From a virus, in IMG/VR virus record IMGVR_UViG_3300013132_000021: a stretch of 64,000 bases of DNA. One strand, written 5' to 3'. A program made the position numbers and the translations under genes. The notes below the pieces were generated by a model. That model was not told the DNA's origin, made no database searches, and was given only the letters and a program-made list of their open reading frames with translations. Below, piece by piece: positions 3,487 to 64,000 of the stretch; positions within the stretch are counted from its first letter, which is position 1, and each line of letters starts with the position of its first letter.

Positions 3487-4187
3487 TATCTTACCTTGAA
3501 AAAGAATACATTAGTTAATCTAGTATCTTCTTTACCTTTGCCAAAAAAATTGTCTGCACTATGCCAATTTCTGGTATCAAAAATAATACATCTGTTGTAT
3601 ACATTTCCGATCTGTATTGTGGGAGTAAAGTGCGATCTTTGTTCTTGTCTATATTTTGCAAATTTACTTCTTTCTTCTTCTGTAGAATACACATCTTCCA
3701 TAAAAATTTTAGTATATTTTTCTCCATCAAAATCTATATTATCTGCATATAAGGTAGTGCCTGATTCTATTGGAGCAGTTGGGGAAAGGTAAATTAATCC
3801 AGCCACATGTAGTTTAGGATCGTCATCGTGTACCCATCCAGTACCCCAACTTTCGTCAATCAGTTGAAATCCGGTTTGCATATCGTATATTTCCTGGACT
3901 CCGTAATCTTTTATTATCTGAAAAATTTTTCGAATCAAATAATTATATAATTCTATATTTGATTCATGCAATAGCTCGGTACGCACACCTGGCCAAGTTC
4001 CTCTTTCTCCTTTAAAGAACTCTTGTTGTAAGGCCCAGTGTCTTACTAGATCCGGAGATTCGAAAAAGTTATCTATAATGATAGTGGGAAAGTATGGGTG
4101 TAAATGTCTATTCTTTAGATCAAGTCTGCTGATCATAACTCTACTATTATATTCTTCTCTAAGAAATTTTTCTAAAAACTGTTTCAT
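3486..4187 (-). CDS. Fe(II)/2OG oxygenase (DUF6445-like)
   Basis: IIDNFF, WPGVRT, GWVHDD, AGLIYL, SGT, NVYNR...WHSA, RLTNVFF. Confidence 0.82.
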   Translation of the reverse strand: MKQFLEKFLREEYNSRVMISRLDLKNRHLHPYFPTIIIDNFFESPDLVRHWALQQEFFKGERGTWPGVRTELLHESNIELYNYLIRKIFQIIKDYGVQEIYDMQTGFQLIDESWGTGWVHDDDPKLHVAGLIYLSPTAPIESGTTLYADNIDFDGEKYTKIFMEDVYSTEEERSKFAKYRQEQRSHFTPTIQIGNVYNRCIIFDTRNWHSADNFFGKGKEDTRLTNVFFFKVR

Positions 4188-4759
4188 TTTATATCAGCGG
4201 AAAAATTTATAGTGCAAACTATTCTTTTATTAAAAACTTTTGGGCAGGTACTGGCATGATAATGCATACCGTCAAATACAACTACTTTTCCCTTCTTTGG
4301 TTCTGACTTGTGTAGAGGATAATACTTTTCAGCGATTTCGGTTTCTCTAAAAATTACTGTGCTTCCATCGCAATCGTTTAGATAATAAACAGCAGTCCAA
4401 TGAGGAGTTTCCATGTCTCTGTGTACAGTATTATATTGATATGGGCTGCCTGCGTATGCGTATTTTGTGTTGAGTAAAAACCCCAGACGGATTCTGTGAA
4501 CTATTTTTAATTCCATATTGGCTTGTTCTGTAATAGCGTTAACTAATGGAGTAAAGAATTCAGCGTGAGGATTTTGAGATTGACTTGGATGATATACCAC
4601 ATGACCAAAGGCTGGAGTAGATGATGTTTTATCAGTGGCTTTTTCGTAGGTTGTATCTTCCATAAAATGCCACGGGAAGTTTATATCAGTTACTAGATTA
4701 TAGATCTCATTTTGATAGGTTTTATCGACGACATCGAATAACTCCAATGGCTTAAACAC
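4184..4759 (-). CDS. Fe(II)/2OG oxygenase (paralogue of 2360..2971)
   Basis: FPWHF, VHRD, AVYYLNDCDGST, PKKGKVVVFDG.HYHAS, RIVCTINF. Confidence 0.85.
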   Translation of the reverse strand: MFKPLELFDVVDKTYQNEIYNLVTDINFPWHFMEDTTYEKATDKTSSTPAFGHVVYHPSQSQNPHAEFFTPLVNAITEQANMELKIVHRIRLGFLLNTKYAYAGSPYQYNTVHRDMETPHWTAVYYLNDCDGSTVIFRETEIAEKYYPLHKSEPKKGKVVVFDGMHYHASTCPKVFNKRIVCTINFSADIK

Positions 4760-8380: not shown

Positions 8381-9181
8381 TTATTTCCTTTTGGTGTAAT
8401 TTTTTAAGATCTTAGTTAATCTATTTAATCTTGAAGATAACGAATCAGTCTTCAGAATGGCACAATTAGAGGCATAAACCCAAGCTCTTTCGCGAGTCCA
8501 GTCTGCAGAATCGGCTTCATCAATAGTAACGTCATAGCTTCCCACAGACAGATATTCCCTCTTCATAGGAATAATATGGCATAGAGGTGTTCCGGCTTTT
8601 ACCAAAGTTTCTCCGTGTTTTTTTTTCCAAAACAATTGAATGTTTAAGTTGTATCCATATCTACTATCTAAAATTCCAGTAGCTGAAAAAAATCTATCTT
8701 CGTTGTTATAATGCACCGGCATCATTACAAATACAATATCATCTGATGCCTCAACCCTCCAAGGAGTTTCTATTTTTACGATAGAACTTAATATTTCTGA
8801 AGGATCGTCTAACAAGCACATAGTTTGATTCGGTCCGTGTACCGCCGATACATACCGTGCCACATCGAGCGGATATTCTGGTCCGATTTTGAATCTCCAG
8901 GGTTCCCGCCAGTCATAAGATATACCAGATTCGTGTACTTTGATTATAAAATCAGCAGGAGCCGGTACTATCCACCCAGCCGAGGTGAGTTTAAGAATCC
9001 CCGGACAGTTTTTGGTTGACATCACATTCTGATCTTCTGGCCAAGATCTATATTTTCGACTCAGCTGTTTAGATGGATATATGGGATATAGAGTTGTGAC
9101 TCCTGGCTCCATCGAGTAAAATCGTACCCAGGGTTTTTTCTTCCAAATTTTACCAAATAGTTTTTTACACAGAATGCTCAT
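8381..9181 (-). CDS. Conserved phage hypothetical protein (DUF6065-like / beta-clip-like), commonly found near phage oxygenases
   Basis: KNCPG...GWIVPAP.D, KIETPW, GILD, KAGTPLCHIIP.KRE. Start at the ATG 9181 preceded by GGAG. Confidence 0.55.
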   Translation of the reverse strand: MSILCKKLFGKIWKKKPWVRFYSMEPGVTTLYPIYPSKQLSRKYRSWPEDQNVMSTKNCPGILKLTSAGWIVPAPADFIIKVHESGISYDWREPWRFKIGPEYPLDVARYVSAVHGPNQTMCLLDDPSEILSSIVKIETPWRVEASDDIVFVMMPVHYNNEDRFFSATGILDSRYGYNLNIQLFWKKKHGETLVKAGTPLCHIIPMKREYLSVGSYDVTIDEADSADWTRERAWVYASNCAILKTDSLSSRLNRLTKILKNYTKRK

Positions 9182-33977: not shown

Positions 33978-34379
33978 TTACATTGCGGTTAAGTGGATAT
34001 AATCGCTGGTAGAATCATTAACAAGGAACCACTTGTAACGAACACCGTTAAAATCAGTGGCCACACGTTTGGTGATTTTTGCAATCGCTCTTTCAGTTTG
34101 CCCATTGCCGTCTAAATAACCAAGGATACGCATTTCTCCATTAGCAGCTGGTACTGCCGATTGTAATTTGCATACTGCTGTTGCTGCTGCTTGATTAGCT
34201 ACAACGAAAGCTTTTGCTCCCCGTTGCTTAACGATATAGGCATAATTTGTTGCATTGTTGTATGTTGCTTCTGTATAAGCAGCACCCCCAAAATATGCTT
34301 CAATTTGAATTCCTGTGTTGCTAGACGGTGTACCGATAACATCAACACCATTTACATCTTTTCTTAGTGGACGTCCCAT
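33978..34379 (-). CDS. Hypothetical virion protein (possible head decoration)
   Basis: Strong AAGGAG SD, its own late promoter, located downstream of the major capsid gene. Confidence 0.5.
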   Translation of the reverse strand: MGRPLRKDVNGVDVIGTPSSNTGIQIEAYFGGAAYTEATYNNATNYAYIVKQRGAKAFVVANQAAATAVCKLQSAVPAANGEMRILGYLDGNGQTERAIAKITKRVATDFNGVRYKWFLVNDSTSDYIHLTAM

Positions 34380-34449
34380 TTGTTTTCTCCTTTAGGTTGA
34401 CGTTCTAGGTCTACGCGGTGGGTACCGCATAATTACTTAGATACTTTAT

Positions 34450-34719
34450 TTATCCGCGGCTCAGCAGACTCATCAGTTCCATTTTTTCCACTGTGGCAAC
34501 GATCCTGTTAATCTCATCCAGTTCTCGCTGTGCTTTTTCCAAATAGCTGCGACTGTGCGTTTGTCTGTAGCGTATACCAGCGTTGCTGAACTCTACTATG
34601 TGCTGTTCTACCATACGTTCAATTCGTTGAACATCGTGAGCAAACATAGGGAATCGCATGCGCCATTGATTGATGTGTCTGCGCAGTTGGGGGAAATCTC
34701 GATCACTGGTTACCTGCAT
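34450..34719 (-). CDS. Hypothetical helical protein (MQVTSDRDF...)
   Basis: The track ORF start at 34773 crosses the capsid terminator. The likely start is ATG 34719, 5 nt after TAAATA (34725-34730). Confidence 0.55.
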   Translation of the reverse strand: MQVTSDRDFPQLRRHINQWRMRFPMFAHDVQRIERMVEQHIVEFSNAGIRYRQTHSRSYLEKAQRELDEINRIVATVEKMELMSLLSRG

Positions 34720-46665: not shown

Positions 46666-48153
46666 TTATGCTGTTCCTAGTTGTTGCTGCAGATATTTCA
46701 TGATTTCTTTTTTCTGTTTAGTATTTAACTGATCTATCAGTTTATCTAAATCTGCGTCACTCATCGCTGCCGTATCAGCAGCGCCTGTGGGCAGTTTCAT
46801 GTCTGTGTAAACTTTGTCTATGGTTCCAGCATCGATACCGCCATAGTTGAGTAAAAATTTCTTTAGTTCTTCTGAATCTGTAGGCGAACCTTCCAGTTTC
46901 CATGCAGCCATTAACTTGGCAGATGTTACTCGTTCAGTGGCCTGCTTGCCAGCCCATTCAGCACCCTTAGCAACTGCACCAGCAACTTTGCCCGCAGCAC
47001 CTTTGACCTTGTCTAGAAATCCTGCTTCTGTGAGCACACGATCAAACAGCATATAGACCTGACCTTCGCTGAGTGGACGGGTCTGCGTATAATAACTTTC
47101 TTTCTGATCTTTGCCAACATTTTTAGCATCACCTGCAGCGGCCACAGCACCTTGGCTCAGAGCCTGTCCAGCCTGTGCCATGCCTTTGATCCATTGCATT
47201 AGTCCGTCGTTGGCCAGTTGATCGGATCTGGCATTTGCCATGATGTCTTTGATAGCTGATTTGTAGTCAGCGGATCTTATTTCCTGTGCGATCTTTGCCA
47301 ATGTGTCATAGCCACCAGATTGACCATCTCTGATCATACGCATGGCTTCTTCTATGGCTGCTTTCTCTTGAGGAAATACCACTACATTAAATCCCTGTGT
47401 GGTCTGTTTCCATTCCATGCCAGGACCGGACAATGTTTTGGTTGCACCCCAAGATACCTGTTCTAGTCCCGACTCTTCAGGACCAAATGGTATGGCATCT
47501 GCTCGCATGCCGGCCACAAACTTGCCTAATACTTCAAAGGCCTTGCCTGATAGATAGCCCAATGCCGCTGTCTTGATGCCTTTGCCTACGGCAGTGCTTA
47601 GTTTTTCACCTTTGATCAATTCTGCAGAACCACGCAGAACCTGACCAGCTATGGCACCACCTACAGGACCACCTGCCAGAGAAGCCAAGGCAGTTAACAC
47701 ACCAATGATAGCTGCACTCTTACCAGGATTTTCTTTCATCCATGTGCCTAGACCTGTTAGCTGCTGATCTAGTGCAGGAAACTTTTCTCCAACCTTGGCT
47801 TTGAGCTGCTCGAACTTTTGATCAGCCATCTTAACAGGAGCTGTATCCTGTACCCATTTGCCCACGTTGTTGATGATTTCGTTGGCCTGTTTAGCTACAT
47901 CAACACCTTTGCCTGCTAGGGTTCTGCTGCTGCCACTTTCTATGTTAGATTTTTCAATCTGTTGGAATATGCCTTTGATCTGATCTGCACTAAGGCTAGC
48001 TTCGATCAAAGGCAAAAATTCATTATAGATACCTTGTACTATTTTAGACTGTTCCGGACTGAGTCCTTCACAGCTTTCTTTTAATATTGATCTACTGTTT
48101 TGGAGATGTTGTTCCAGTAATAGTATAGGATCTGATAGTGTTGTTAAACGCAT
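46666..48153 (-). CDS. Helical protein with a glycine-zipper hydrophobic hairpin, probable internal/ejection protein
   Basis: AAIIGVLTALASLAGGPVGGAIAG segment, several L-x-E sites, late promoter TAAATA at 48178-48183. Confidence 0.5.
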   Translation of the reverse strand: MRLTTLSDPILLLEQHLQNSRSILKESCEGLSPEQSKIVQGIYNEFLPLIEASLSADQIKGIFQQIEKSNIESGSSRTLAGKGVDVAKQANEIINNVGKWVQDTAPVKMADQKFEQLKAKVGEKFPALDQQLTGLGTWMKENPGKSAAIIGVLTALASLAGGPVGGAIAGQVLRGSAELIKGEKLSTAVGKGIKTAALGYLSGKAFEVLGKFVAGMRADAIPFGPEESGLEQVSWGATKTLSGPGMEWKQTTQGFNVVVFPQEKAAIEEAMRMIRDGQSGGYDTLAKIAQEIRSADYKSAIKDIMANARSDQLANDGLMQWIKGMAQAGQALSQGAVAAAGDAKNVGKDQKESYYTQTRPLSEGQVYMLFDRVLTEAGFLDKVKGAAGKVAGAVAKGAEWAGKQATERVTSAKLMAAWKLEGSPTDSEELKKFLLNYGGIDAGTIDKVYTDMKLPTGAADTAAMSDADLDKLIDQLNTKQKKEIMKYLQQQLGTA

Positions 48154-48189
48154 TTAGTCATCTCAATGATTTATAGTTATTTATTTGTA

Positions 48190-48655
48190 TAAAGAGCTAA
48201 AGCTCTTTTGCGATTTCGCTTACGCTCATCGCTTTTCTTTCTTTTTAATTTTTGCTAGATGCAAAAATTTTTTGCGCGAAGCGCAAAGTTAGCATTATCC
48301 AGATTGTTCAGCCACACTTCGCCCGTTGCCGGGCGATGATAGTACATTATCCGAGTTGACAAGCACACAATAGCGTTATGGCATTACAGAGGCGGTCATC
48401 CGGTACCTCGAGCCACGTCTTCATATGACGGCGGTTTACTAAAATACGCTAACACTTTAGTAAACGTAGGGTTTTTCTCCCTTCCTTTTACCCTTACAAT
48501 ACTTTTCAAACAACTAAATCGCAGGTTTTAAGCGATCCTCATCCATAAATGGGTAGTAGTTGAGTACCACTGCGGCATGGAATTCCGTCCCTGCGACCAC
48601 GATTGACCAGGTTTAGAGCGCACGAATTTAGGCCTGCGCTAGCCAAAAACCGCTG
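48190..48655 (-). ncRNA. Candidate structured non-coding RNA (or ssDNA origin-like element), unassigned family
   Basis: Largest ORF-free gap in the window, with at least 9 hairpins, GNRA tetraloops on the minus strand and two imperfect ~25-nt direct repeats. Confidence 0.55.
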
Positions 48656-49090
48656 TTATTTTGCCTTTTTATGTTCTTCGATACGCTGTCTAAGCGTGTT
48701 TGAGCCGCCAACTCTGACGTTTATAATGCCATTATAATAGTCATCTGACTCTAAAACTCTGCGTTCAAACTGCTCTCTAGCCTCTAGATATGACATCTCT
48801 GCCTTAGATTTACAAAGATAAAGTATTTCTCTCGTGAAATTATTCGGACCTAATGCTTGGACATCTGCTTGTAACCTATCAGATGAACCCCAATATTCGC
48901 GCCAATCGCTTTCTACTGTGCTTCTGCGTTTAAGTCGTTTGCCTTTGAGTGGTGGTTTGGTGCGTTTGAACTGTGCAAGTTTCTTGCCTATGTACTTCTG
49001 CCCGGTCTGTAGATTGGTGATGAGATAAACAAAGCCAATATAGCCTTCTGGTATTTCGTCTACTAGTTGATTTTGATACGTCCACAGCAC
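48656..49090 (-). CDS. Stand-alone GIY-YIG-family nuclease domain protein (144 aa)
   Basis: GFVYLITN...KYIGKK, YWGSS, F.REIL, conserved E (YLEA.EQ), YYN. No C-terminal DNA-binding extension. Confidence 0.8.
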   Translation of the reverse strand: MLWTYQNQLVDEIPEGYIGFVYLITNLQTGQKYIGKKLAQFKRTKPPLKGKRLKRRSTVESDWREYWGSSDRLQADVQALGPNNFTREILYLCKSKAEMSYLEAREQFERRVLESDDYYNGIINVRVGGSNTLRQRIEEHKKAK

Positions 49091-49321
49091 TCACTTAGTT
49101 ATGTTGAGCGGTTTGCCTCTCATGCCTTTTCTGGCTTTTCGCCGTTCTTCTCTTTTTTCTTGTATTTCTTTTCGTCTTGTACTTGCCTCATTGCGTATTT
49201 CTGATAGCCAATATCGTGCCTTAATGCCTGCTTCGTCTGAATGTTTATATTCAAACCGTTCTTGCCACTTAAAGTATTCTTGGAACGCTTTAATCATGCG
49301 ATCATGACTGTCTGTGCTCAT
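49091..49321 (-). CDS. Small basic helical hypothetical protein
   Basis: Coupled between gp46 and the GIY-YIG gene. AG.KAR..L.EI....RRKEIQ. Confidence 0.6.
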   Translation of the reverse strand: MSTDSHDRMIKAFQEYFKWQERFEYKHSDEAGIKARYWLSEIRNEASTRRKEIQEKREERRKARKGMRGKPLNITK

Positions 49322-51096
49322 GATACTATTTCGATATCTGTTGAATAACTAGTGAACCCTCCCTCTTTGATCACTTTCAACACATGATTCACACGACTGG
49401 TTAGATCATCTCTGTGCGAAATTAAGAATACATTCTTGTCACGCTCGCGGGTCATCTTTTTCAACACAGCGATACTGGATTCTACTCCTGAAGCATCCAT
49501 GCCTGAATCCACTAATTCGTCAATGAATAACAGATTGATGCCGTGATAGAGATTCTCCCATACATCACGGAAAGCCCAACTCAGAGAAAGTATCAATCTA
49601 TTGCGTTCCCCGCGGCTCAGATTGTCAAAATCTAGATCCTGGCCCAGTTGGGTGATGATCACAGTGAGATCATTTTGGAATTCCACGGTGTGTGGTAGTC
49701 CGATCTTGTCCAGATAGTAGGTAAGGCGTTGATTGAGGAATGCGAGATTCTGATCAATGATGCGTTTGCGTACAAAACTATCTTTGTTTGTGAGCAATTT
49801 GTACAGAAACTCCTGATGGTCTTTGACACGCACTAGTTCGTTCATGTAGTTCCAATCGATCTCTTGTACCGCAGTGGCTTTGAGCTCGATGATCTGTTCA
49901 TCATAGGGATTTTCATCTGCGGCCTTAATCTCGAGATCTTTTTCTAAACTGGTTAATGTGTTCTTGTGATTTAACGCCTCTTCCAAGGTATCATACTGCA
50001 CTGTTGGACAATCGCCTAGTGCACCAAGATCTACTAGTGCTGATTCATAGGCAGAGATGTTCGCAGTCTGTAGATCATATTCTGCACAGGCAGCGGCATG
50101 ATCTTTGCGTTTTGCAGCCATAACTTCGTCGTGCTTGGCATCATGAAATTCTTGACCACAGGCATGACAGAGATGCCGTTCTAGAGTAGCGATTTCTGCT
50201 GCTAATCGATCACGCAGTTTTTCTTCTCTGCTTTGATCTAGCCTAGCACGATTCAATTGAGCAGTGACTTCGTTGATGTCTTTGCGCAGTTGATTATACA
50301 CAGCCAGAGCCTTGTGTGCAGCCACTTCTTGTTCGATGTCGATGTGACTTAGATGATCGATGCTCTTGAGAATATTTTCGAGATTTTTTTCCTTGGCTTC
50401 TTCCCACATGTTCTGCTTACGCTCTAGGGCAGTGATGCTCTGCTGTATGCGCTCGTTGCTGGCTTTAACAGTTTCTACACGAGTAGTTTCAGTGCTGATA
50501 CTGTCTTTGGTCAGCTTGATCTGTTCCTTGAGAGCATCTGCTTTTTCACTTAACAATGTGATACCTAACAACTGTTCGATGATAGCACGTTGTTCTGCTG
50601 CCTTCTGCGCCAAGAACGGTTCTGTGTAGGTGTTTAGAGCCACTAGATGCTTGAACATGTCGTGGCTCATGCAGAATCGTTCTTCGATGCTTTTCTGTGT
50701 TTCTCTGCTGTCACCTTGCGATTCGTCTAGATCTGTGAGCTGCTGTTCTTCACCATTGACACTGAATTTCAGTATGTTGGGTTTGCGACCCCGTTCGATG
50801 TGATATTCAACACCGTCTACATCAAAGGTCACAGTGACCAGCATGCCCTTGCCGTTGATCTTATTGATTAGATTATCACGTTTGATATTGGTCAAGGCCT
50901 GTCCGTAGATGCCGTAGCTGAGACCATTGATGATAGTGGTTTTGCCTGTGCCATTTCTTGCACCAGAGTCGTCACCTCCTAGATCTAAGTTTTCACCTAA
51001 GACCAGTGTGAGCTGTCCGCGATCAAAGTCGATGGCTTGAGTCTGTGCGCCCACACTCATGAAGTTACGCACAGTTAGATTCTTGATTTTAATCAT
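49318..51096 (-). CDS. gp46: Recombination endonuclease ATPase subunit (T4 gp46 / Rad50 / SbcC)
   Basis: RNFMS.G, Walker A RNGTGKTT, coiled coil with CHAC zinc hook, signature LSRGE, Walker B LFIDE, ISH. Confidence 0.95.
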   Translation of the reverse strand: MIKIKNLTVRNFMSVGAQTQAIDFDRGQLTLVLGENLDLGGDDSGARNGTGKTTIINGLSYGIYGQALTNIKRDNLINKINGKGMLVTVTFDVDGVEYHIERGRKPNILKFSVNGEEQQLTDLDESQGDSRETQKSIEERFCMSHDMFKHLVALNTYTEPFLAQKAAEQRAIIEQLLGITLLSEKADALKEQIKLTKDSISTETTRVETVKASNERIQQSITALERKQNMWEEAKEKNLENILKSIDHLSHIDIEQEVAAHKALAVYNQLRKDINEVTAQLNRARLDQSREEKLRDRLAAEIATLERHLCHACGQEFHDAKHDEVMAAKRKDHAAACAEYDLQTANISAYESALVDLGALGDCPTVQYDTLEEALNHKNTLTSLEKDLEIKAADENPYDEQIIELKATAVQEIDWNYMNELVRVKDHQEFLYKLLTNKDSFVRKRIIDQNLAFLNQRLTYYLDKIGLPHTVEFQNDLTVIITQLGQDLDFDNLSRGERNRLILSLSWAFRDVWENLYHGINLLFIDELVDSGMDASGVESSIAVLKKMTRERDKNVFLISHRDDLTSRVNHVLKVIKEGGFTSYSTDIEIVS

Positions 51097-52103
51097 AGGT
51101 CGTTGTATATCTCCAACAGCAGGCTCTTGTCAAAGGTATCGCTGTCAATGGCATTGATCTGATTCATCACTATGGTATCTACACTTTCAAAATTGATGTC
51201 GATTGGTGCAGAAGTAGCGTCTACTTCTACCTTTTCAGGTATCAGCATCAGTTCTCTGAGATCATATTCAGGCATGAACTTTTCTTTGATAAAGTTAGCT
51301 TCTTCGAATGTGATAGGTAAATCAATGGTCACGCGACAGTGCATCTTAGGCCGCAGCAGTTTTTCTGGGGTGTCGATGATCTGACTCAGCTTGAACAATC
51401 TGTAGGTAGGCTGATCGGGCCAGGTCTTATACACAGGAGCCTTGCCCCACTCGAGGATCATCATTCCTCGCTCATCATCTCCGGCGTCCGCATAGTTGTG
51501 CGGAAAAGCATTGCCTATGTAAGTGATATTGCGTCCAGTCTGCCGTTTATGGAAGTGCCCGGAGAACACACATTCCTGATTCTGGAAGTGTGTGCTCTGT
51601 AATTGTCCGTGATCGGGCATCTGCACCATGGCGTTCATGTAGAAGCTGGGCAATTCTAAGTGACCGAATATGTAACGGCTCTTGATCTTAGGCACAGCCT
51701 GCCATTCATCCCCTACCAGCCAAGGCATGATAGTGACATCGCCGTCTGTGAATGTATCTTTGATAGGAACGATGTTAGGAAACAGGCGCATAAACTCTAT
51801 GGAGTTGATCTCACGCTTGTCTTTGTAGAACAGATCGTGATTGCCTAAGATGAAATACACGGTGTCGAAACTCTTGCTCAAGCGTTCTAAGTTTGACACG
51901 GTGTAGTTCATCGTGGAGACATCTGTGGTCGAACGATTGTTATGCCAATCACCTAAAAACACACAACTTTCACAATTTTCTTTTTTTGCCTCTTCGCAGA
52001 ACCACTTGACGAATTCTTCGCAATCGGTATTATGGGTTCGGCTACCACTCTTGAGACCAAAATGTATGTCTGTGAAACAGGCTACCTTTTTGAATAGATT
52101 CAT
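51093..52103 (-). CDS. gp47: Recombination endonuclease nuclease subunit (T4 gp47 / Mre11 / SbcD)
   Basis: DIHFG, LGDW, GNHD, GHLE, SGHFH metallophosphoesterase motifs. Confidence 0.95.
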   Translation of the reverse strand: MNLFKKVACFTDIHFGLKSGSRTHNTDCEEFVKWFCEEAKKENCESCVFLGDWHNNRSTTDVSTMNYTVSNLERLSKSFDTVYFILGNHDLFYKDKREINSIEFMRLFPNIVPIKDTFTDGDVTIMPWLVGDEWQAVPKIKSRYIFGHLELPSFYMNAMVQMPDHGQLQSTHFQNQECVFSGHFHKRQTGRNITYIGNAFPHNYADAGDDERGMMILEWGKAPVYKTWPDQPTYRLFKLSQIIDTPEKLLRPKMHCRVTIDLPITFEEANFIKEKFMPEYDLRELMLIPEKVEVDATSAPIDINFESVDTIVMNQINAIDSDTFDKSLLLEIYNDL

Positions 52104-52134: not shown

Positions 52135-52977
52135 TCAATCCCAATCGCCGCCGTCTGAGACTGGCCCGGAGGATATCACAGGGCCGCTGCCGCTGTTCTG
52201 TCTGGTCCATGAAGGATTCATGCCGTTCATTTCAAGAATGTCGTCTCGAATGTTTTGGTTGCGTTTTTCAATGTTGATGATTCGCACGAATGAATTAGTA
52301 ACAGCAGCGGTATAATAAGCGAAAGGATTATCGGATTTGGATTCATCGAACTGTAGTCCTATCTGAGTGAGTTGTAAGATGGCCTGCCCACGCATTTCGT
52401 CATTGTAGGTATAGCCTCGAACGTTGCCTCTGGTAGCATAGCGTTCACAGAGCTTGATAAACATGCGAGCGAGATCGTTGGTCATCTGACCGTGATCCTT
52501 AGAGAATTCACCGTGCTCGAGATCACCTTTCCAGTGGCTCTTGCCAACACAACTGATATTACCTTTGTCATCGAACTTCCAATGTTGGAATGGAGGAAAA
52601 TTAACTTTGTCATGACTGTCCGCGGTGTTCTTCAACGTCTTTTTGCGACCCGGAGCCAACGGTATATGTTCAAAGGTCATCACACGGAATATGAGATCTT
52701 CCTTGCGCATCTTTTTGTAATCTACTTCAAATTCTTTAGCAGGTAGTTTTTTACCTCCGGTTATTACCGCTGCTTCGTGTGCCTGTTTGCTGAGTCTAGC
52801 TGCACAATTTCTTTTAGCCTCTGCTATGGTTCTTATGTTGATTTTAGCTAGATTAGGTACTATGAGATCATAGAATCCATATTCTGGTTTGAGGTAGCTG
52901 CAATAGGTATTTTTACTAAGGTGTATTTCTTTCAGTAGGTCTTTGTTGGTCAAATACTTGATCTTGGGCACTGTCAT
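52135..52977 (-). CDS. gp55: Late-transcription sigma factor (T4 gp55-like)
   Basis: YLTNKDL at the N-terminus, L..M...L.ERYA.R.N.RGYTY.DEM...A, F...KS.NPFAYYT...NSF.R.I..EK. gp55-47-46 synteny. Confidence 0.85.
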   Translation of the reverse strand: MTVPKIKYLTNKDLLKEIHLSKNTYCSYLKPEYGFYDLIVPNLAKINIRTIAEAKRNCAARLSKQAHEAAVITGGKKLPAKEFEVDYKKMRKEDLIFRVMTFEHIPLAPGRKKTLKNTADSHDKVNFPPFQHWKFDDKGNISCVGKSHWKGDLEHGEFSKDHGQMTNDLARMFIKLCERYATRGNVRGYTYNDEMRGQAILQLTQIGLQFDESKSDNPFAYYTAAVTNSFVRIINIEKRNQNIRDDILEMNGMNPSWTRQNSGSGPVISSGPVSDGGDWD

Positions 52978-62550: not shown

Positions 62551-62551
62551 C

Positions 62552-64000
62552 ATGTCAGATAAATTTTTCCCTTTCAGTAAACTACCTATAAGAAAATCAG
62601 TAGAACTTCTACCGAAAGTTTTTCAGACAGAAGCTAACGATAAATTTCTTGCAGGCGTAGTAGATCCTTTAGTACAACCAGGATTATTGGATAAAATTAC
62701 AGGATATGTTGGTCGAAGGTTTGGCAAAACTTATAATGGTAACGATCTATATCTAGATACAGATGCTACATTAAGAAGTGCTTATCAGTTAGAACCCGGA
62801 GTGATATATCGAAATCAGGATAAGATTGAAAATTTCTATGATTACATTGATTTTAAAAATCAATTAAAATTCTTTGGTAACACAGATGAACGTGACGACA
62901 AACTTACTAGCCAGGAGCACTATGCCTGGAATCCGCCTATTGCCTGGGACAAGTTCATCAATTATCGCGAATATTATTGGGTGCCCAGCGGTCCGCCTAG
63001 TGTCTCAATATATGGACAAAGCGCCACAGTCAACAGTACATATAAAGTAGTATTGAGTACAACTGCAAACAGTTTTGTGTTTACTCCAGATGCCTATACC
63101 AATAATCCTACTCTAACATTATATCGAGGACAGACATATAAATTTAAAGTTAATGCTCCTGGTGAAGGATTTAGTATTCGTACGAATTATGATACAGGAA
63201 GTTTGATATTCAAACCTAATCATCCATATCTTGCAGGCAATCTAGCAGTATATGATTCTAAACTATATAGAGCACGCCGAGACATAAATCCCGCAGACGG
63301 TAGTTCTATCACATTAGATAGTGAAGATTGGGAATATCTCGAACCAGCCGCATCCGGTTCCGCCTTAGAATACAAAAAAGGTGTAATCAACAACGGCACT
63401 GAAAATGGCACAGTGACTTTTACTGTTCCGTACGATGCTCCTGATACATTATATTATCAGGGATTAATTACTCCTGATACCTTTGGTAGATTTGTTATAG
63501 CTGATATTGAATCTAATACATATCTCAATGTAGATAAAGACATGGTTGGCAAGAGTGAATATACTAGCAGTACTGGCATTACACTAAGCAATGGAATGGT
63601 TGTCAAATTTCAAGGTACCGTTATCCCAGAAAAATATAGTCAGGAAACATGGGTGGTTGAAGGAGTTGGAAAAGCTATAACATTGACAAAATTCTCTGAC
63701 CTTATAGTTCCAGTATTAACAGCCACAGTACCTGAAGTATTATTTGATAACGCAGGCTTTGACACAGAACCCTTTGATGATGCCACCGCATATCCTACCT
63801 TTAAAGATTACATCACTATAGCTAGAGACAGTATTGATTCTAATCCTTGGTCAAGGTATAATCGTTGGTTCCATAGAAGTGTATTAGAAACAGCTTATAC
63901 TCTGCGAGGCGAAGATTTTCCTGCAGAAGAATCTACTAGAGCTAAACGACCTATTATAGAATTTTCAGCTAATCTGCAGTTATTCAATCACGGATCGGCA
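62552..64000 (+). CDS. Large baseplate wedge/structural protein (gp7-like), truncated by the window end
   Basis: ATG 62552 (MSDKFFPFSKLPIRKSVELLPKVFQT...KFL) directly after gp6. Absent from the ORF track, consistent with no stop before 64000. Confidence 0.7.
   Translation, partial: MSDKFFPFSKLPIRKSVELLPKVFQTEANDKFLAGVVDPLVQPGLLDKITGYVGRRFGKTYNGNDLYLDTDATLRSAYQLEPGVIYRNQDKIENFYDYIDFKNQLKFFGNTDERDDKLTSQEHYAWNPPIAWDKFINYREYYWVPSGPPSVSIYGQSATVNSTYKVVLSTTANSFVFTPDAYTNNPTLTLYRGQTYKFKVNAPGEGFSIRTNYDTGSLIFKPNHPYLAGNLAVYDSKLYRARRDINPADGSSITLDSEDWEYLEPAASGSALEYKKGVINNGTENGTVTFTVPYDAPDTLYYQGLITPDTFGRFVIADIESNTYLNVDKDMVGKSEYTSSTGITLSNGMVVKFQGTVIPEKYSQETWVVEGVGKAITLTKFSDLIVPVLTATVPEVLFDNAGFDTEPFDDATAYPTFKDYITIARDSIDSNPWSRYNRWFHRSVLETAYTLRGEDFPAEESTRAKRPIIEFSANLQLFNHGSA

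What the first reader, a model, noticed from the sequence alone, without database searches (positions are those of the whole stretch)
48190..49090. Stand-alone GIY-YIG nuclease followed by a ~470-nt densely structured non-coding element: candidate nuclease-RNA system
Seen: the only ~500-bp ORF-free gap in a gene-dense window starts right at the GIY-YIG stop codon. Read on the gene's (minus) strand it is packed with stems: AGCGCA/TGCGCT (48617-48640), ATCGC/GCGAT (48518-48536), AGGG/CCCT (48468-48482), a 10-bp GTTTACTAAA/TTTAGTAAAC stem (48434-48465), CGTC/GACG (48416-48430), TCGCCCG-GCAA-CGGGCGA (48319-48336, GNRA loop), and GCGAT..GC-GTAA-GC..ATCGC (GNRA loop). Established: homing GIY-YIG enzymes such as I-TevI and Seg proteins carry extra DNA-binding domains, which this 144-aa protein lacks. 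Compact nucleases with adjacent structured RNAs exist (IscB/HEARO-omegaRNA, TnpB reRNA). Inference: this may be a ribonucleoprotein of a catalytic-only GIY-YIG domain and a cis-encoded RNA that supplies specificity or scaffolding, co-transcribed with gp55-47-46. I could not match it by eye to tRNA, tmRNA, RNase P, a group I intron or a known ribozyme.
Basis: partly seen in the sequence, partly recalled or inferred. Interest (0 to 1): 0.85.

Follow-up and report, generated by a model that had tools for sequence, protein, structure and literature searches.

The report
Known phage RNA beside mobile nuclease
The gene-free stretch behind the small nuclease gene encodes a real, about 455-base, knotted non-coding RNA. 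Its first third is the catalogued but unexplained Polynucleobacter-1 motif. The evidence points to the nuclease being a separately mobile neighbour of this RNA, not its partner.

Summary
Window 48154-48655 is the longest ORF-free stretch, and on the minus strand it encodes a conserved RNA of about 455 nt (48644-48191).

- **Identity.** The 5' 137 nt match Rfam RF01718, Polynucleobacter-1, at 99.9 bits against a cut-off of 37. The remainder has two pseudoknots, two 7-nt "twin boxes" that change in step, a GA-loop hairpin and a terminator-like hairpin.
- **Structure.** 81 pairs in 18 helices are 94% paired across 42 relatives, and 55 pairs show compensatory changes.
- **Prior knowledge.** Weinberg et al. 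(2010) already linked this RNA to an upstream gene family. I show that family is this GIY-YIG fold.
- **The ribonucleoprotein idea is not supported.**
  - The RNA occurs without any such nuclease in Polynucleobacter chromosomes.
  - It occurs behind a PD-(D/E)XK nuclease in the same slot in related phages.
  - Distant GIY-YIG homologues lack the RNA.
- **The nuclease looks mobile.** Its synonymous divergence is 0.3-1.6, while flanking gp46 and gp47 are saturated. It recombines independently of the RNA.

This scan has noted the same RNA in at least 69 other genomes.

The parts
48656..49090 (-). 144-aa stand-alone GIY-YIG nuclease gene with a GTG start directly after the TGA stop of the upstream ORF
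   Evidence: Pfam PF19835 E 3e-36. PHROG 447 E 2e-39. GIY, YIG, Arg-Glu, Glu and Asn positions are invariant in 18 homologues. The AF2 model's top four of 48,161 chains are all GIY-YIG nucleases, led by I-TevI at Z 6.8.
49091..49321 (-). 76-aa conserved basic ORF between gp46 and the nuclease slot, with no family match
   Evidence: Present at 38-92% identity in most related loci. It is also kept in L237, where the nuclease is a PD-(D/E)XK. No Pfam or PHROG hit.
48191..48644 (-). The whole non-coding RNA (extended Polynucleobacter-1 RNA), about 455 nt. Conservation starts as early as 48654.
   Evidence: blastn finds the whole gap (query positions 2 to about 490) directly after the nuclease stop in most of the 80 related loci with enough downstream sequence, at 68-87% nt identity. 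The structure model is 94% paired against 78% for shuffles and 32-44% for slid partners. 55 of 81 pairs show compensatory change. Many G-U pairs fix the minus strand as the transcribed strand.
48508..48644 (-). 5' domain, the Rfam RF01718 Polynucleobacter-1 motif. Helices P1-P6 form a junction closed by CAACU/AGUUG (48562-48558 with 48515-48511).
   Evidence: cmscan 99.9 bits, cut-off 37, E 8e-22, model positions 1-141. It is the only copy in the 129.8-kb record.
48434..48465 (-). Hairpin Hb (10 bp). Its loop, 48451-48446, forms pseudoknot PK1 with 48376-48371.
   Evidence: All 10 pairs have changes on both sides. PK1 pairs switch G-C 25 / A-U 16 and U-A 25 / G-C 16.
48378..48429 (-). Knotted core. 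PK2 is 48429-48426 with 48398-48395. Helix Hd is 48416-48412 with 48382-48378. Helix He is 48409-48405 with 48393-48389 and contains the invariant GGUACCGGnnnACCGCC.
   Evidence: Covariation in PK2, Hd and He. The invariant core served as the pattern that retrieved 90 further RNA copies.
48346..48358 (-). Twin unit 1: CAA-CUC-GGAUAAU, with box 1 at 48352-48346, followed by hairpin Hf (48336-48319, GCAA loop)
   Evidence: Box 1 equals box 2 in 77 of 86 copies, with 12 box types. In 106 distinct sequences each box column's best partner is its twin (G/G 70 and A/A 36; G/G 85 and C/C 20).
48294..48306 (-). Twin unit 2: CAA-UCU-GGAUAAU, with box 2 at 48300-48294, followed by hairpin Hg (48287-48271, UUCG loop)
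   Evidence: Same as unit 1. On a tree of the flanking genes box 1 changed at least 11 times and box 2 at least 10 times, yet they are identical in 59 of 62 loci.
48210..48232 (-). Hairpin GCGAU-GA-GC-GUAA-GC-GAA-AUCGC with tandem G-A internal loop, preceded by a purine-rich linker at 48246-48232
   Evidence: Conserved in phage and Polynucleobacter copies. The two counted pairs covary. Calling it k-turn-like is my inference.
48191..48208 (-). Terminator-like hairpin AAAGAGC-UUUA-GCUCUUU that ends the element
   Evidence: 6 of 7 pairs have compensatory changes. The same feature ends the Polynucleobacter copies. The simple scan did not call it a terminator because the T run is short.
48168..48184 (-). 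ATAAATAA / CTATAAATC, resembling the T4 late promoter TATAAATA, in front of the next gene (ATG at 48153)
   Evidence: aATAAATAa is conserved in the alignment just after the terminator hairpin. The promoter identity rests on established T4 knowledge and was not tested.

Best explanation
The gap encodes an autonomous, trans-acting structured RNA of mobile elements, an extended form of the Polynucleobacter-1 RNA.

**In this phage.** It is made as the 3'-terminal part of the gp47-gp46-orf76-nuclease transcription unit and ends at its own terminator-like hairpin. Its layout, 5' to 3', is:
- a junction domain (RF01718);
- a double-pseudoknot core;
- two tandem units that each display the same 7-nt box next to a stable hairpin;
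- a GA-loop hairpin.

**Likely mode of action (inferred).** The RNA presents the same short, fast-evolving code twice to an external reader.

**The nuclease.** The GIY-YIG gene is not the RNA's partner. It is a separately mobile, homing-type nuclease gene. It sits in a swappable nuclease slot at the 5' edge of the conserved RNA gene, at the border between the conserved gp47-gp46 module and a variable region. It sometimes carries the RNA's 5' domain along by co-conversion.

**Shown:** the RNA, its family, its structure, its independence from the nuclease, and the mosaic history. **Inferred:** trans action, the kind of reader, and homing.
For: **RNA and family.** RF01718 at 99.9 bits. Whole-gap conservation in 80 loci. 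18 helices including 2 pseudoknots, with covariation 0.463 against 0.180 for shuffles (0 of 500 reach it) and at most 0.083 for slid partners.

**Independence from the nuclease.**
- 17 of 151 Polynucleobacter species genomes carry the RNA.
- There it is flanked by DUF6641 and a 188-198-aa tyrosine recombinase rather than a GIY-YIG.
- Four such genomes have no homologue, while the phage control rings at E 4e-97.

**Slot swapping.** Of 90 further phage RNA copies:
- 76 have GIY-YIG upstream;
- 5 have a PDDEXK_15 nuclease in the same place. One is L237, with gp47-gp46-orf76 intact and the RNA starting about 20 nt after the stop;
- one follows an amidoligase-like gene.

**Nuclease without RNA.**

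**Different histories.** GIY-YIG dS is 0.32-1.55 with dN/dS near 0.1. gp46 and gp47 dS are saturated in all 12 comparisons. Nucleotide identity peaks on the nuclease gene at 77-91%, against 59-71% for gp46. The peak ends at the gene's stop codon in L002, L036 and L007, but runs into the RNA 5' domain in L006, L009 and L012.

**Twin boxes.** Identical despite 10 or more changes.

**Precedent.** T4 SegB, a GIY-YIG homing enzyme, lies inside the tRNA gene cluster (PMC2330249). Nuclease genes lie at boundaries of exchange between phages (PMC10055350).
Against: - No allele with an empty nuclease slot was found in the gp46 context. Every testable copy had GIY-YIG or PDDEXK. This is unusual for a purely selfish homing gene and leaves room for a useful nuclease function.
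- The recurrent adjacency of the RNA to DNA-cutting or DNA-joining enzymes of three folds could also mean functional coupling.
- Low dS could partly reflect constraint on the nucleotide sequence rather than recent transfer.
- No cleavage site, transcript end or reader of the boxes is known.
- The only RNA data are contigs of relatives, and DNA carry-over is not excluded.
Confidence: 0.7

Rival explanations
1. One reading: the catalytic-only GIY-YIG protein and the cis-encoded RNA form a dedicated ribonucleoprotein. The RNA supplies DNA-target specificity or a scaffold.
For: - Tight adjacency, with the RNA starting about 10 nt after the stop, in 70-76 of 90 independent RNA copies and in all 80 loci found through the protein.
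- The protein has no DNA-binding domain beyond the catalytic fold.
- It carries a basic insertion, KRTKPPLKGKRLKRR.
- The twin boxes are short variable segments in a constant scaffold.
Against: - The RNA occurs without the protein and the protein without the RNA.
- L010, L013, L026 and L033 keep the nuclease while losing or replacing large parts of the RNA.
- The nuclease and the RNA recombine independently.
- No sequence complementary to the boxes is enriched in the loci, inside the RNA or in the 129.8-kb record.
Confidence: 0.06
2. The RNA gene, or the orf76-RNA junction, is the homing target. The nucleases cut alleles that lack them or carry another nuclease, close to the RNA's 5' edge. Repair then copies the nuclease gene together with part of the RNA. 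This is a sharper form of the best explanation.
For: - Two unrelated nuclease folds occupy exactly the same site between orf76 and the RNA.
- The high-identity tract sometimes extends into the RNA 5' domain (88-96% in L006, L009 and L012), as co-conversion would give.
- The RNA has long invariant stretches that suit a recognition site.
- T4 SegB cleaves within the tRNA gene region next to which it is encoded (PMC2330249).
Against: No cleavage site is known and no empty-site allele was found. The target could equally lie in gp46 or orf76.
Confidence: 0.3
3. The element is a cis-acting 3' UTR. It would stabilise or process the upstream mRNA, or insulate the upstream unit from the late genes downstream. 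On this view it has no trans function.
For: - It lies at the 3' end of the unit and ends in a terminator-like hairpin directly before a late-promoter-like motif.
- Contigs from RNA libraries bridge gene and RNA.
Against: - The Polynucleobacter copies stand alone in a roughly 1-kb intergenic region with no upstream gene on their strand.
- About 455 nt with two pseudoknots and step-changing twin boxes is far more than stability or termination needs.
- The RNA follows unrelated genes in other phages.
Confidence: 0.1
4. The element acts as DNA, for example as a replication origin, a packaging signal or a set of protein-binding repeats. The twin boxes would be iteron-like sites.
For: The two direct repeats change by identity, as binding sites for one protein would. 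The element is shared by phages and chromosomal islands.
Against: - 55 pairs show compensatory changes and many pairs are G-U, which would be C-A on the other strand.
- The constant CUC versus UCU difference lies between the two co-varying patches, which argues against simple repeat homogenisation.
Confidence: 0.03

Closest known systems
Polynucleobacter-1 RNA motif (Rfam RF01718; Weinberg et al. 2010, PMC2864571)
   Same: The 5' 137 nt match the whole model at 99.9 bits. The 2010 supplement already says that most examples lie downstream of genes of family GOS11034, possibly related to PSSM2_218, and that a 3' half is not always detected. Its raw alignment shows the same 3' extension.
   Different: - Rfam models only 141 positions. 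The pseudoknot core, twin boxes, GA-loop hairpin and terminator are not in the model.
- In 2010 no example was found in a purified phage, and the upstream gene was not named. Here it is shown to be a GIY-YIG nuclease: PSSM2_218 matches at E 1e-22.
- The carriers here are T4-like phage contigs.
- Function is unknown in both.
T4 SegB and other free-standing GIY-YIG homing endonucleases (PMC2330249; review PMC2988022)
   Same: A small GIY-YIG gene sits in an intergenic slot of a T4-like phage, directly beside structured RNA genes. There are signs of horizontal movement with flanking DNA.
   Different: - Seg proteins carry a C-terminal DNA-binding part. This protein is 144 aa, with the catalytic fold covering residues 3-123.
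- No cleavage or homing was tested.
- No empty-site allele was seen.
IscB-omegaRNA (HEARO) and TnpB-reRNA, the OMEGA RNA-guided nucleases
   Same: A compact nuclease gene lies next to a large structured RNA with short variable segments.
   Different: - The nuclease fold is GIY-YIG, not RuvC or HNH.
- The RNA and the nuclease each occur without the other.
- The variable segments are two identical 7-mers inside the RNA, not one terminal guide.
- No matching target was found.
Large ornate non-coding RNAs of phages and bacteria (GOLLD, HEARO and others in PMC2864571)
   Same: Several hundred nucleotides, many helices and pseudoknots, carried by phages and mobile islands, function unknown at discovery.
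   Different: No sequence or model match to any of them at E up to 10. The twin co-varying boxes are, to my knowledge, not described for them.
T4 endonuclease II (DenA, PDB 2wsh) and the I-TevI catalytic domain (1ln0)
   Same: Same fold. I-TevI gives Z 6.8, rmsd 2.9 Å, 77 residues aligned. EndoII gives Z 4.0. EndoII is likewise a stand-alone catalytic domain. Cyanophage homologues of the window protein lie after nrdA-nrdB. T4 denA lies in the same position, which I state from my own knowledge.
   Different: No detectable sequence match to any solved chain. A role in host-DNA breakdown was not tested.

Membership tests
Polynucleobacter-1 RNA (Rfam RF01718) | Covariance-model score at or above the curated gathering score of 37 bits over the full model | tested here: met
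   99.9 bits, E 8e-22, model positions 1-141, window 48508-48644 minus strand
Polynucleobacter-1 RNA (Rfam RF01718) | The model's helices are kept by compensatory changes in relatives | tested here: met
   Helices P1-P6 are 82-100% paired, with changes on both sides in 18 of their 27 counted pairs
Polynucleobacter-1 RNA (Rfam RF01718) | Position downstream of a GOS11034 / PSSM2_218-like gene, as described in 2010 | tested here: met
   The upstream gene matches PSSM2_218 of P-SSM2 at E 1.2e-22 and 49% identity
GIY-YIG nuclease superfamily (Pfam SegE_GIY-YIG PF19835) | Profile score above the curated cut-off | tested here: met
   124.8 bits against 25, E 3e-36, residues 3-123
GIY-YIG nuclease superfamily (Pfam SegE_GIY-YIG PF19835) | GIY and YIG motifs plus conserved Arg, Glu and Asn | tested here: met
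   G19, Y22, Y33-I34-G35, R87-E88, E103 and N120 are invariant in 18 homologues. Assigning them to catalytic roles is by analogy with I-TevI.
GIY-YIG nuclease superfamily (Pfam SegE_GIY-YIG PF19835) | GIY-YIG fold | tested here: met
   AF2 model pLDDT 74.5. The best four of 48,161 chains are I-TevI (Z 6.8), PD-T4-3 (Z 6.0), the UvrC N-terminal domain (Z 4.7) and T4 EndoII (Z 4.0). Foldseek alone was weak.
Free-standing homing endonuclease (Seg/Mob type) | Gene less diverged than its flanks, with mosaic breakpoints at its borders | tested here: met
   dS 0.32-1.55 against saturated flanks. Identity peaks on the gene.
Free-standing homing endonuclease (Seg/Mob type) | Sporadic presence, with empty-site alleles in relatives | tested here: inconclusive
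   Replaced by PDDEXK_15 in 5 loci, but no empty slot in the gp46 context among 90 copies
Free-standing homing endonuclease (Seg/Mob type) | Separate DNA-binding domain, as in I-TevI and Seg proteins | tested here: not met
   144 aa. The catalytic profile covers residues 3-123, and only one C-terminal helix follows.
Free-standing homing endonuclease (Seg/Mob type) | Site-specific cleavage of the nuclease-less allele and preferential inheritance | not testable with these tools
   Needs enzyme assays and co-infection crosses
RNA-guided nuclease of the OMEGA kind (IscB-omegaRNA, TnpB-reRNA) | Nuclease and RNA always occur together | tested here: not met
   RNA without nuclease. Nuclease without RNA.
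RNA-guided nuclease of the OMEGA kind (IscB-omegaRNA, TnpB-reRNA) | Variable guide segment that matches a DNA target | tested here: inconclusive
   The twin 7-mers vary, but no complementary site is enriched in the loci, the RNA or the 129.8-kb record. Targets in other genomes were not searched.
Group I or group II intron | Match to the intron covariance models and a split host gene | tested here: not met
   No intron family at E up to 10 in 47500-49800. The upstream ORF ends at its own stop and the next gene has its own start.

The most novel reading that the evidence does not exclude
The twin-box RNA is a programmable address module. It works with whichever minimal DNA enzyme is encoded beside it: GIY-YIG or PD-(D/E)XK nucleases in phages, or a catalytic-domain-only tyrosine recombinase in Polynucleobacter islands. 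The two identical 7-nt boxes would read the two half-sites of a dyad-symmetric DNA target.
Probability: 0.04. Interest if true: 0.95.

Novelty: new member of a known kind. Interest (0 to 1): 0.45.

Why it matters
Large, multiply knotted non-coding RNAs are rare. This one is common: hundreds of contigs of uncultured freshwater T4-like phages carry it, as do about one in nine sampled Polynucleobacter species. It has had no known function since 2010.

This analysis does four things:
- It places the catalogued 141-nt motif inside an RNA of about 455 nt.
- It names the long-noted neighbouring gene as a GIY-YIG nuclease.
- It shows that this nuclease is a mobile neighbour rather than a partner, which removes a tempting but wrong RNA-guided-nuclease reading.
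- It leaves a sharp, testable puzzle: what reads the same fast-changing 7-letter box twice.

It also gives a clear natural example of two unrelated nuclease folds alternating in one slot at a recombination boundary beside a conserved RNA gene.

Tried and rejected
- **Other RNA classes.** ARAGORN found no tRNA or tmRNA in the window. The only other Rfam row in the region is cow-rumen-2 at 21.7 bits against a 66-bit cut-off, which is chance. No intron, RNase P, 6S or riboswitch family appears at E up to 10.
- **Solved-structure search by sequence.** Nothing meaningful for the nuclease. Foldseek against PDB had no match at E 0.001 or better.
- **Simple promoter and terminator scan.** No more hits than in shuffles. 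Its single terminator-like call is hairpin Hg.
- **A partner for the twin boxes.**
  - Exact reverse complements in the loci: 0.33 per locus against 0.35 for other box types.
  - 5-mers inside the RNA: 0.49 against 0.63.
  - Mutual information over 106 sequences gives only the twin column. One isolated column (405) has no neighbouring pairs.
  - In the 129.8-kb record, GGATAAT occurs 9 times against 8.1 expected, and ATTATCC 12 against 11.5.
- **Candidate local pairings.** Box with downstream U-rich stretch, unit 1 with unit 2, and an anticodon-loop mimic were examined by eye and. They were dropped for lack of covariation.
- **A shared protein partner.** The phage record has no DUF6641 or tyrosine recombinase, so no partner is shared with the island.
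- **RNA-library contigs.** They give no cover over 48100-48321 and only relatives at 85-99% identity, so they show neither the 3' end nor the level of the RNA.
- **Loci without the RNA.** L087, L090 and Melnitz show none with Rfam or nhmmer profiles. L087 does have a 600-nt ORF-free stretch that I did not resolve.
- **The first PF19835 family search in the Polynucleobacter genomes.** It had no positive control. I replaced it with a protein search that rings in the phage record.
Full report
**Setting.** The window is the minus strand of a 129.8-kb IMG/VR virus record, estimated 36% complete. On the minus strand around the finding lie, in order:
- a late sigma factor of the gp55 type (52135-52977);
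- a Mre11-like gp47 (51093-52103);
- a Rad50-like gp46 (49318-51096);
- a 76-aa ORF (49091-49321);
- the 144-aa GIY-YIG gene (48656-49090);
- the gap (48154-48655);
- a 495-aa ORF with no family match.

The nearest cultured relatives of the nuclease gene are Methylophilales phages of the Melnitz group, and the match covers that gene only.

**Observation.** The gap is the longest ORF-free stretch of the window at 502 nt. The next longest is 323 nt. Its minus strand folds far better than shuffles (z = -4.6). The seventh, CGTC/GACG, is only compatible with pairing. Covariation supports a pseudoknot in its place.

**What the RNA is.** Rfam gives one strong hit: Polynucleobacter-1 (RF01718) at 48508-48644, minus strand, 99.9 bits against a cut-off of 37, over the full model. 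The family was described by Weinberg et al. (2010) with no known function. Their supplement records two things. Most examples lie downstream of genes of family GOS11034, possibly related to PSSM2_218 of cyanophage P-SSM2. A 3' half "is not always detected". Their raw alignment contains the same 3' extension I see here. I tested the gene link directly. PSSM2_218, annotated "NAD synthetase", matches the window's GIY-YIG protein at E 1.2e-22. So the nuclease-RNA adjacency was reported in 2010 without the fold being named.

**Extent and structure.**
- The protein has more than 593 relatives in IMG/VR. The best 80 loci all show gp47-gp46-(orf76)-GIY-YIG.
- Wherever enough downstream sequence is present, a non-coding stretch follows. 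In most of these loci it matches the whole gap, positions 2 to about 490, at 68-87% nt identity. Four loci (L010, L013, L026, L033) keep only part of it.
- I aligned 42 sequences (A1). The model combines the Rfam helices, RNAalifold and mutual information. It has 81 pairs in 18 helices.
- 94.0% of cells are paired, against 78.4% for shuffles (0 of 500 reach it) and 32-44% when partners are slid.
- 55 pairs have changes on both sides. The covariation score is 0.463, against 0.180 for shuffles and at most 0.083 for slid partners.
- The parts, 5' to 3', are: the RF01718 junction domain; hairpins Ha and Hb; PK1 (the loop of Hb with 48376-48371); PK2 (48429-48426 with 48398-48395) crossing helices Hd and He around the invariant GGUACCGGnnnACCGCC; the two twin units with hairpins Hf and Hg; a purine-rich linker; a GA-loop hairpin; and a terminator-like hairpin.
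- A conserved ATAAATA motif, resembling the T4 late promoter, follows. That promoter identity is established T4 knowledge and was not tested here.
- Frequent G-U pairs fix the minus strand as the RNA strand.

**Twin boxes.** Two direct units, NNA-CUC-box and NNA-UCU-box, lie at 48358-48346 and 48306-48294 in the window. They carry the same 7-mer, here GGAUAAU.
- I saw the identity covariation, before consulting earlier notes.
- The boxes are identical in 77 of 86 phage and bacterial copies, with 12 box types.
- On a tree of the flanking genes the boxes changed at least 10-11 times, yet are identical in 59 of 62 loci.
- The fixed CUC/UCU difference lies between two co-varying patches, so simple repeat homogenisation is unlikely. 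This points to selection for a common reader.
- I found no complementary partner inside the RNA, in the loci or in the record.

**Is the nuclease the partner? RNA without GIY-YIG.**
- RF01718 occurs in 17 of 151 sampled Polynucleobacter species genomes and in 2 of 151 genomes sampled across the family.
- About 20 chromosomal copies have one architecture. A DUF6641 gene lies on the opposite strand, 120-180 nt upstream. The RNA follows. A 188-198-aa catalytic-domain-only tyrosine recombinase starts 0.8-1.5 kb further on the same strand.
- Four such genomes have no homologue of the window protein, while the phage record rings at E 4e-97.
- I scanned IMG/VR with the invariant core and found 90 more RNA copies. 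Their upstream neighbours were:
  - GIY-YIG directly upstream in 70;
  - GIY-YIG further upstream behind an inserted gene in 6;
  - too little upstream sequence to tell in 5;
  - no GIY-YIG in 9.
- Of those 9, five have a PDDEXK_15 nuclease (PF24608, E 1e-26 to 6e-30) in the same slot. In L237 the synteny gp47-gp46-orf76 is intact and the RNA starts about 20 nt after the PDDEXK stop. In L147 an RNase H gene lies between the two. In L135 the PDDEXK gene follows the RNA. In L213 the RNA follows an amidoligase-like gene.

**Is the nuclease the partner? GIY-YIG without RNA.**
- Homologues in Melnitz (63% identity), S-SRM01, S-RSM4, Moby and P-SSM2 have no such RNA.
- L010, L013, L026 and L033 keep the nuclease but have lost or replaced the 5' two-thirds of the RNA. 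They keep the twin-box half.

**Different histories.**
- In 12 comparisons with the window, dS of gp46 and gp47 is saturated. It is undefined or about 3. dS of the GIY-YIG gene is 0.32-1.55, with dN/dS about 0.1.
- Nucleotide identity peaks on the nuclease gene at 77-91%. gp46 shows 59-71% and orf76 48-84%.
- In L002, L036 and L007 the peak ends at the stop codon, with the RNA 5' domain at 62-68%. In L006, L009 and L012 it runs into the RNA 5' domain at 88-96%.
- This is the pattern of a nuclease gene that moves between diverged genomes and sometimes drags flanking DNA with it. It fits free-standing homing enzymes such as T4 SegB, which lies in the tRNA gene cluster (PMC2330249), and nuclease genes at exchange boundaries (PMC10055350).
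- Downstream of the RNA the genes are highly variable, so the slot sits at a module border.

**The protein.**
- It has the GIY, YIG, Arg-Glu, Glu and Asn positions, invariant in 18 homologues.
- Its AF2 model (pLDDT 74.5) is closest to I-TevI's catalytic domain at Z 6.8. The 5hmC-specific GIY-YIG enzyme PD-T4-3, the UvrC N-terminal domain and T4 EndoII follow.
So does T4 EndoII, which I state from my own knowledge. Lack of such a domain therefore does not by itself call for an RNA.

**Expression.** Only assembled contigs from freshwater and river RNA libraries were available, and they come from relatives. Several bridge the nuclease 3' end and the RNA 5' domain: X7 at 48527-48777, X3 at 48605-48742 and X4 at 48587-48677. 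One lies inside the RNA, X1 at 48357-48492. This is compatible with co-transcription. DNA carry-over is not excluded.

**Verdict.** The RNA is real, and its 5' third belongs to a known family. The remainder is uncatalogued but was visible in 2010. The nuclease is most likely a mobile neighbour in a swappable slot. How the RNA works is open. I favour a trans-acting RNA that shows one short code twice to an external reader. An RNA-addressed DNA enzyme stays a long shot, at about 4%.

This scan has reported the same RNA at least 111 times in at least 69 genomes, with the same reading of the RNA.

Noticed in passing
window 34377-34453 (-): Match to Rfam freshwater-2 RNA (RF02980), 52.4 bits against a gathering score of 49.9. 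It coincides with a 70-nt ORF-free gap.
   Followed up: no
window 49091-49321 (-): A 76-aa lysine/arginine/glutamate-rich ORF with no family match. Its TGA stop abuts the GTG start of the nuclease gene. It is conserved in the clade and kept when the nuclease is swapped for a PD-(D/E)XK.
   Followed up: partly
window 46666-48153 (-) and related loci: The gene after the RNA (495 aa, no family) is 27-66% identical, or absent, in relatives whose gp46 is 58-99% identical. A hypervariable region begins right after the RNA.
   Followed up: partly
L094, L098-L122 (Polynucleobacter chromosomes): A conserved triad of DUF6641 (opposite strand), the RNA, and a 188-198-aa tyrosine recombinase holding only the catalytic domain. 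It is present in 17 of 151 species. One genome has two triads 18 kb apart.
   Followed up: partly
L013:3643-4047 and L033:3592-4001: An alternative sequence of about 400 nt, 79% alike between the two contigs, replaces the RF01718 domain and the pseudoknot core in front of the twin-box half. This suggests a modular RNA. L013 also has a 92-aa ORF there.
   Followed up: partly
L213 (IMGVR_UViG contig), 3911-4304 and 8395-8551: A phage contig carries a permuted alpha-type tmRNA and a tRNA. It also has the Polynucleobacter-1 RNA behind an amidoligase-like gene, with no gp46/gp47 context.
   Followed up: no
L087:3427-4021: A 600-nt ORF-free stretch behind a 72%-identical GIY-YIG gene on a marine MAG contig. 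It has no match to the RNA profiles and may be a diverged or different RNA.
   Followed up: no
window 62551-62873: The second longest stretch without ORFs of 50 aa or more (323 nt) in the window. Not examined.
   Followed up: no
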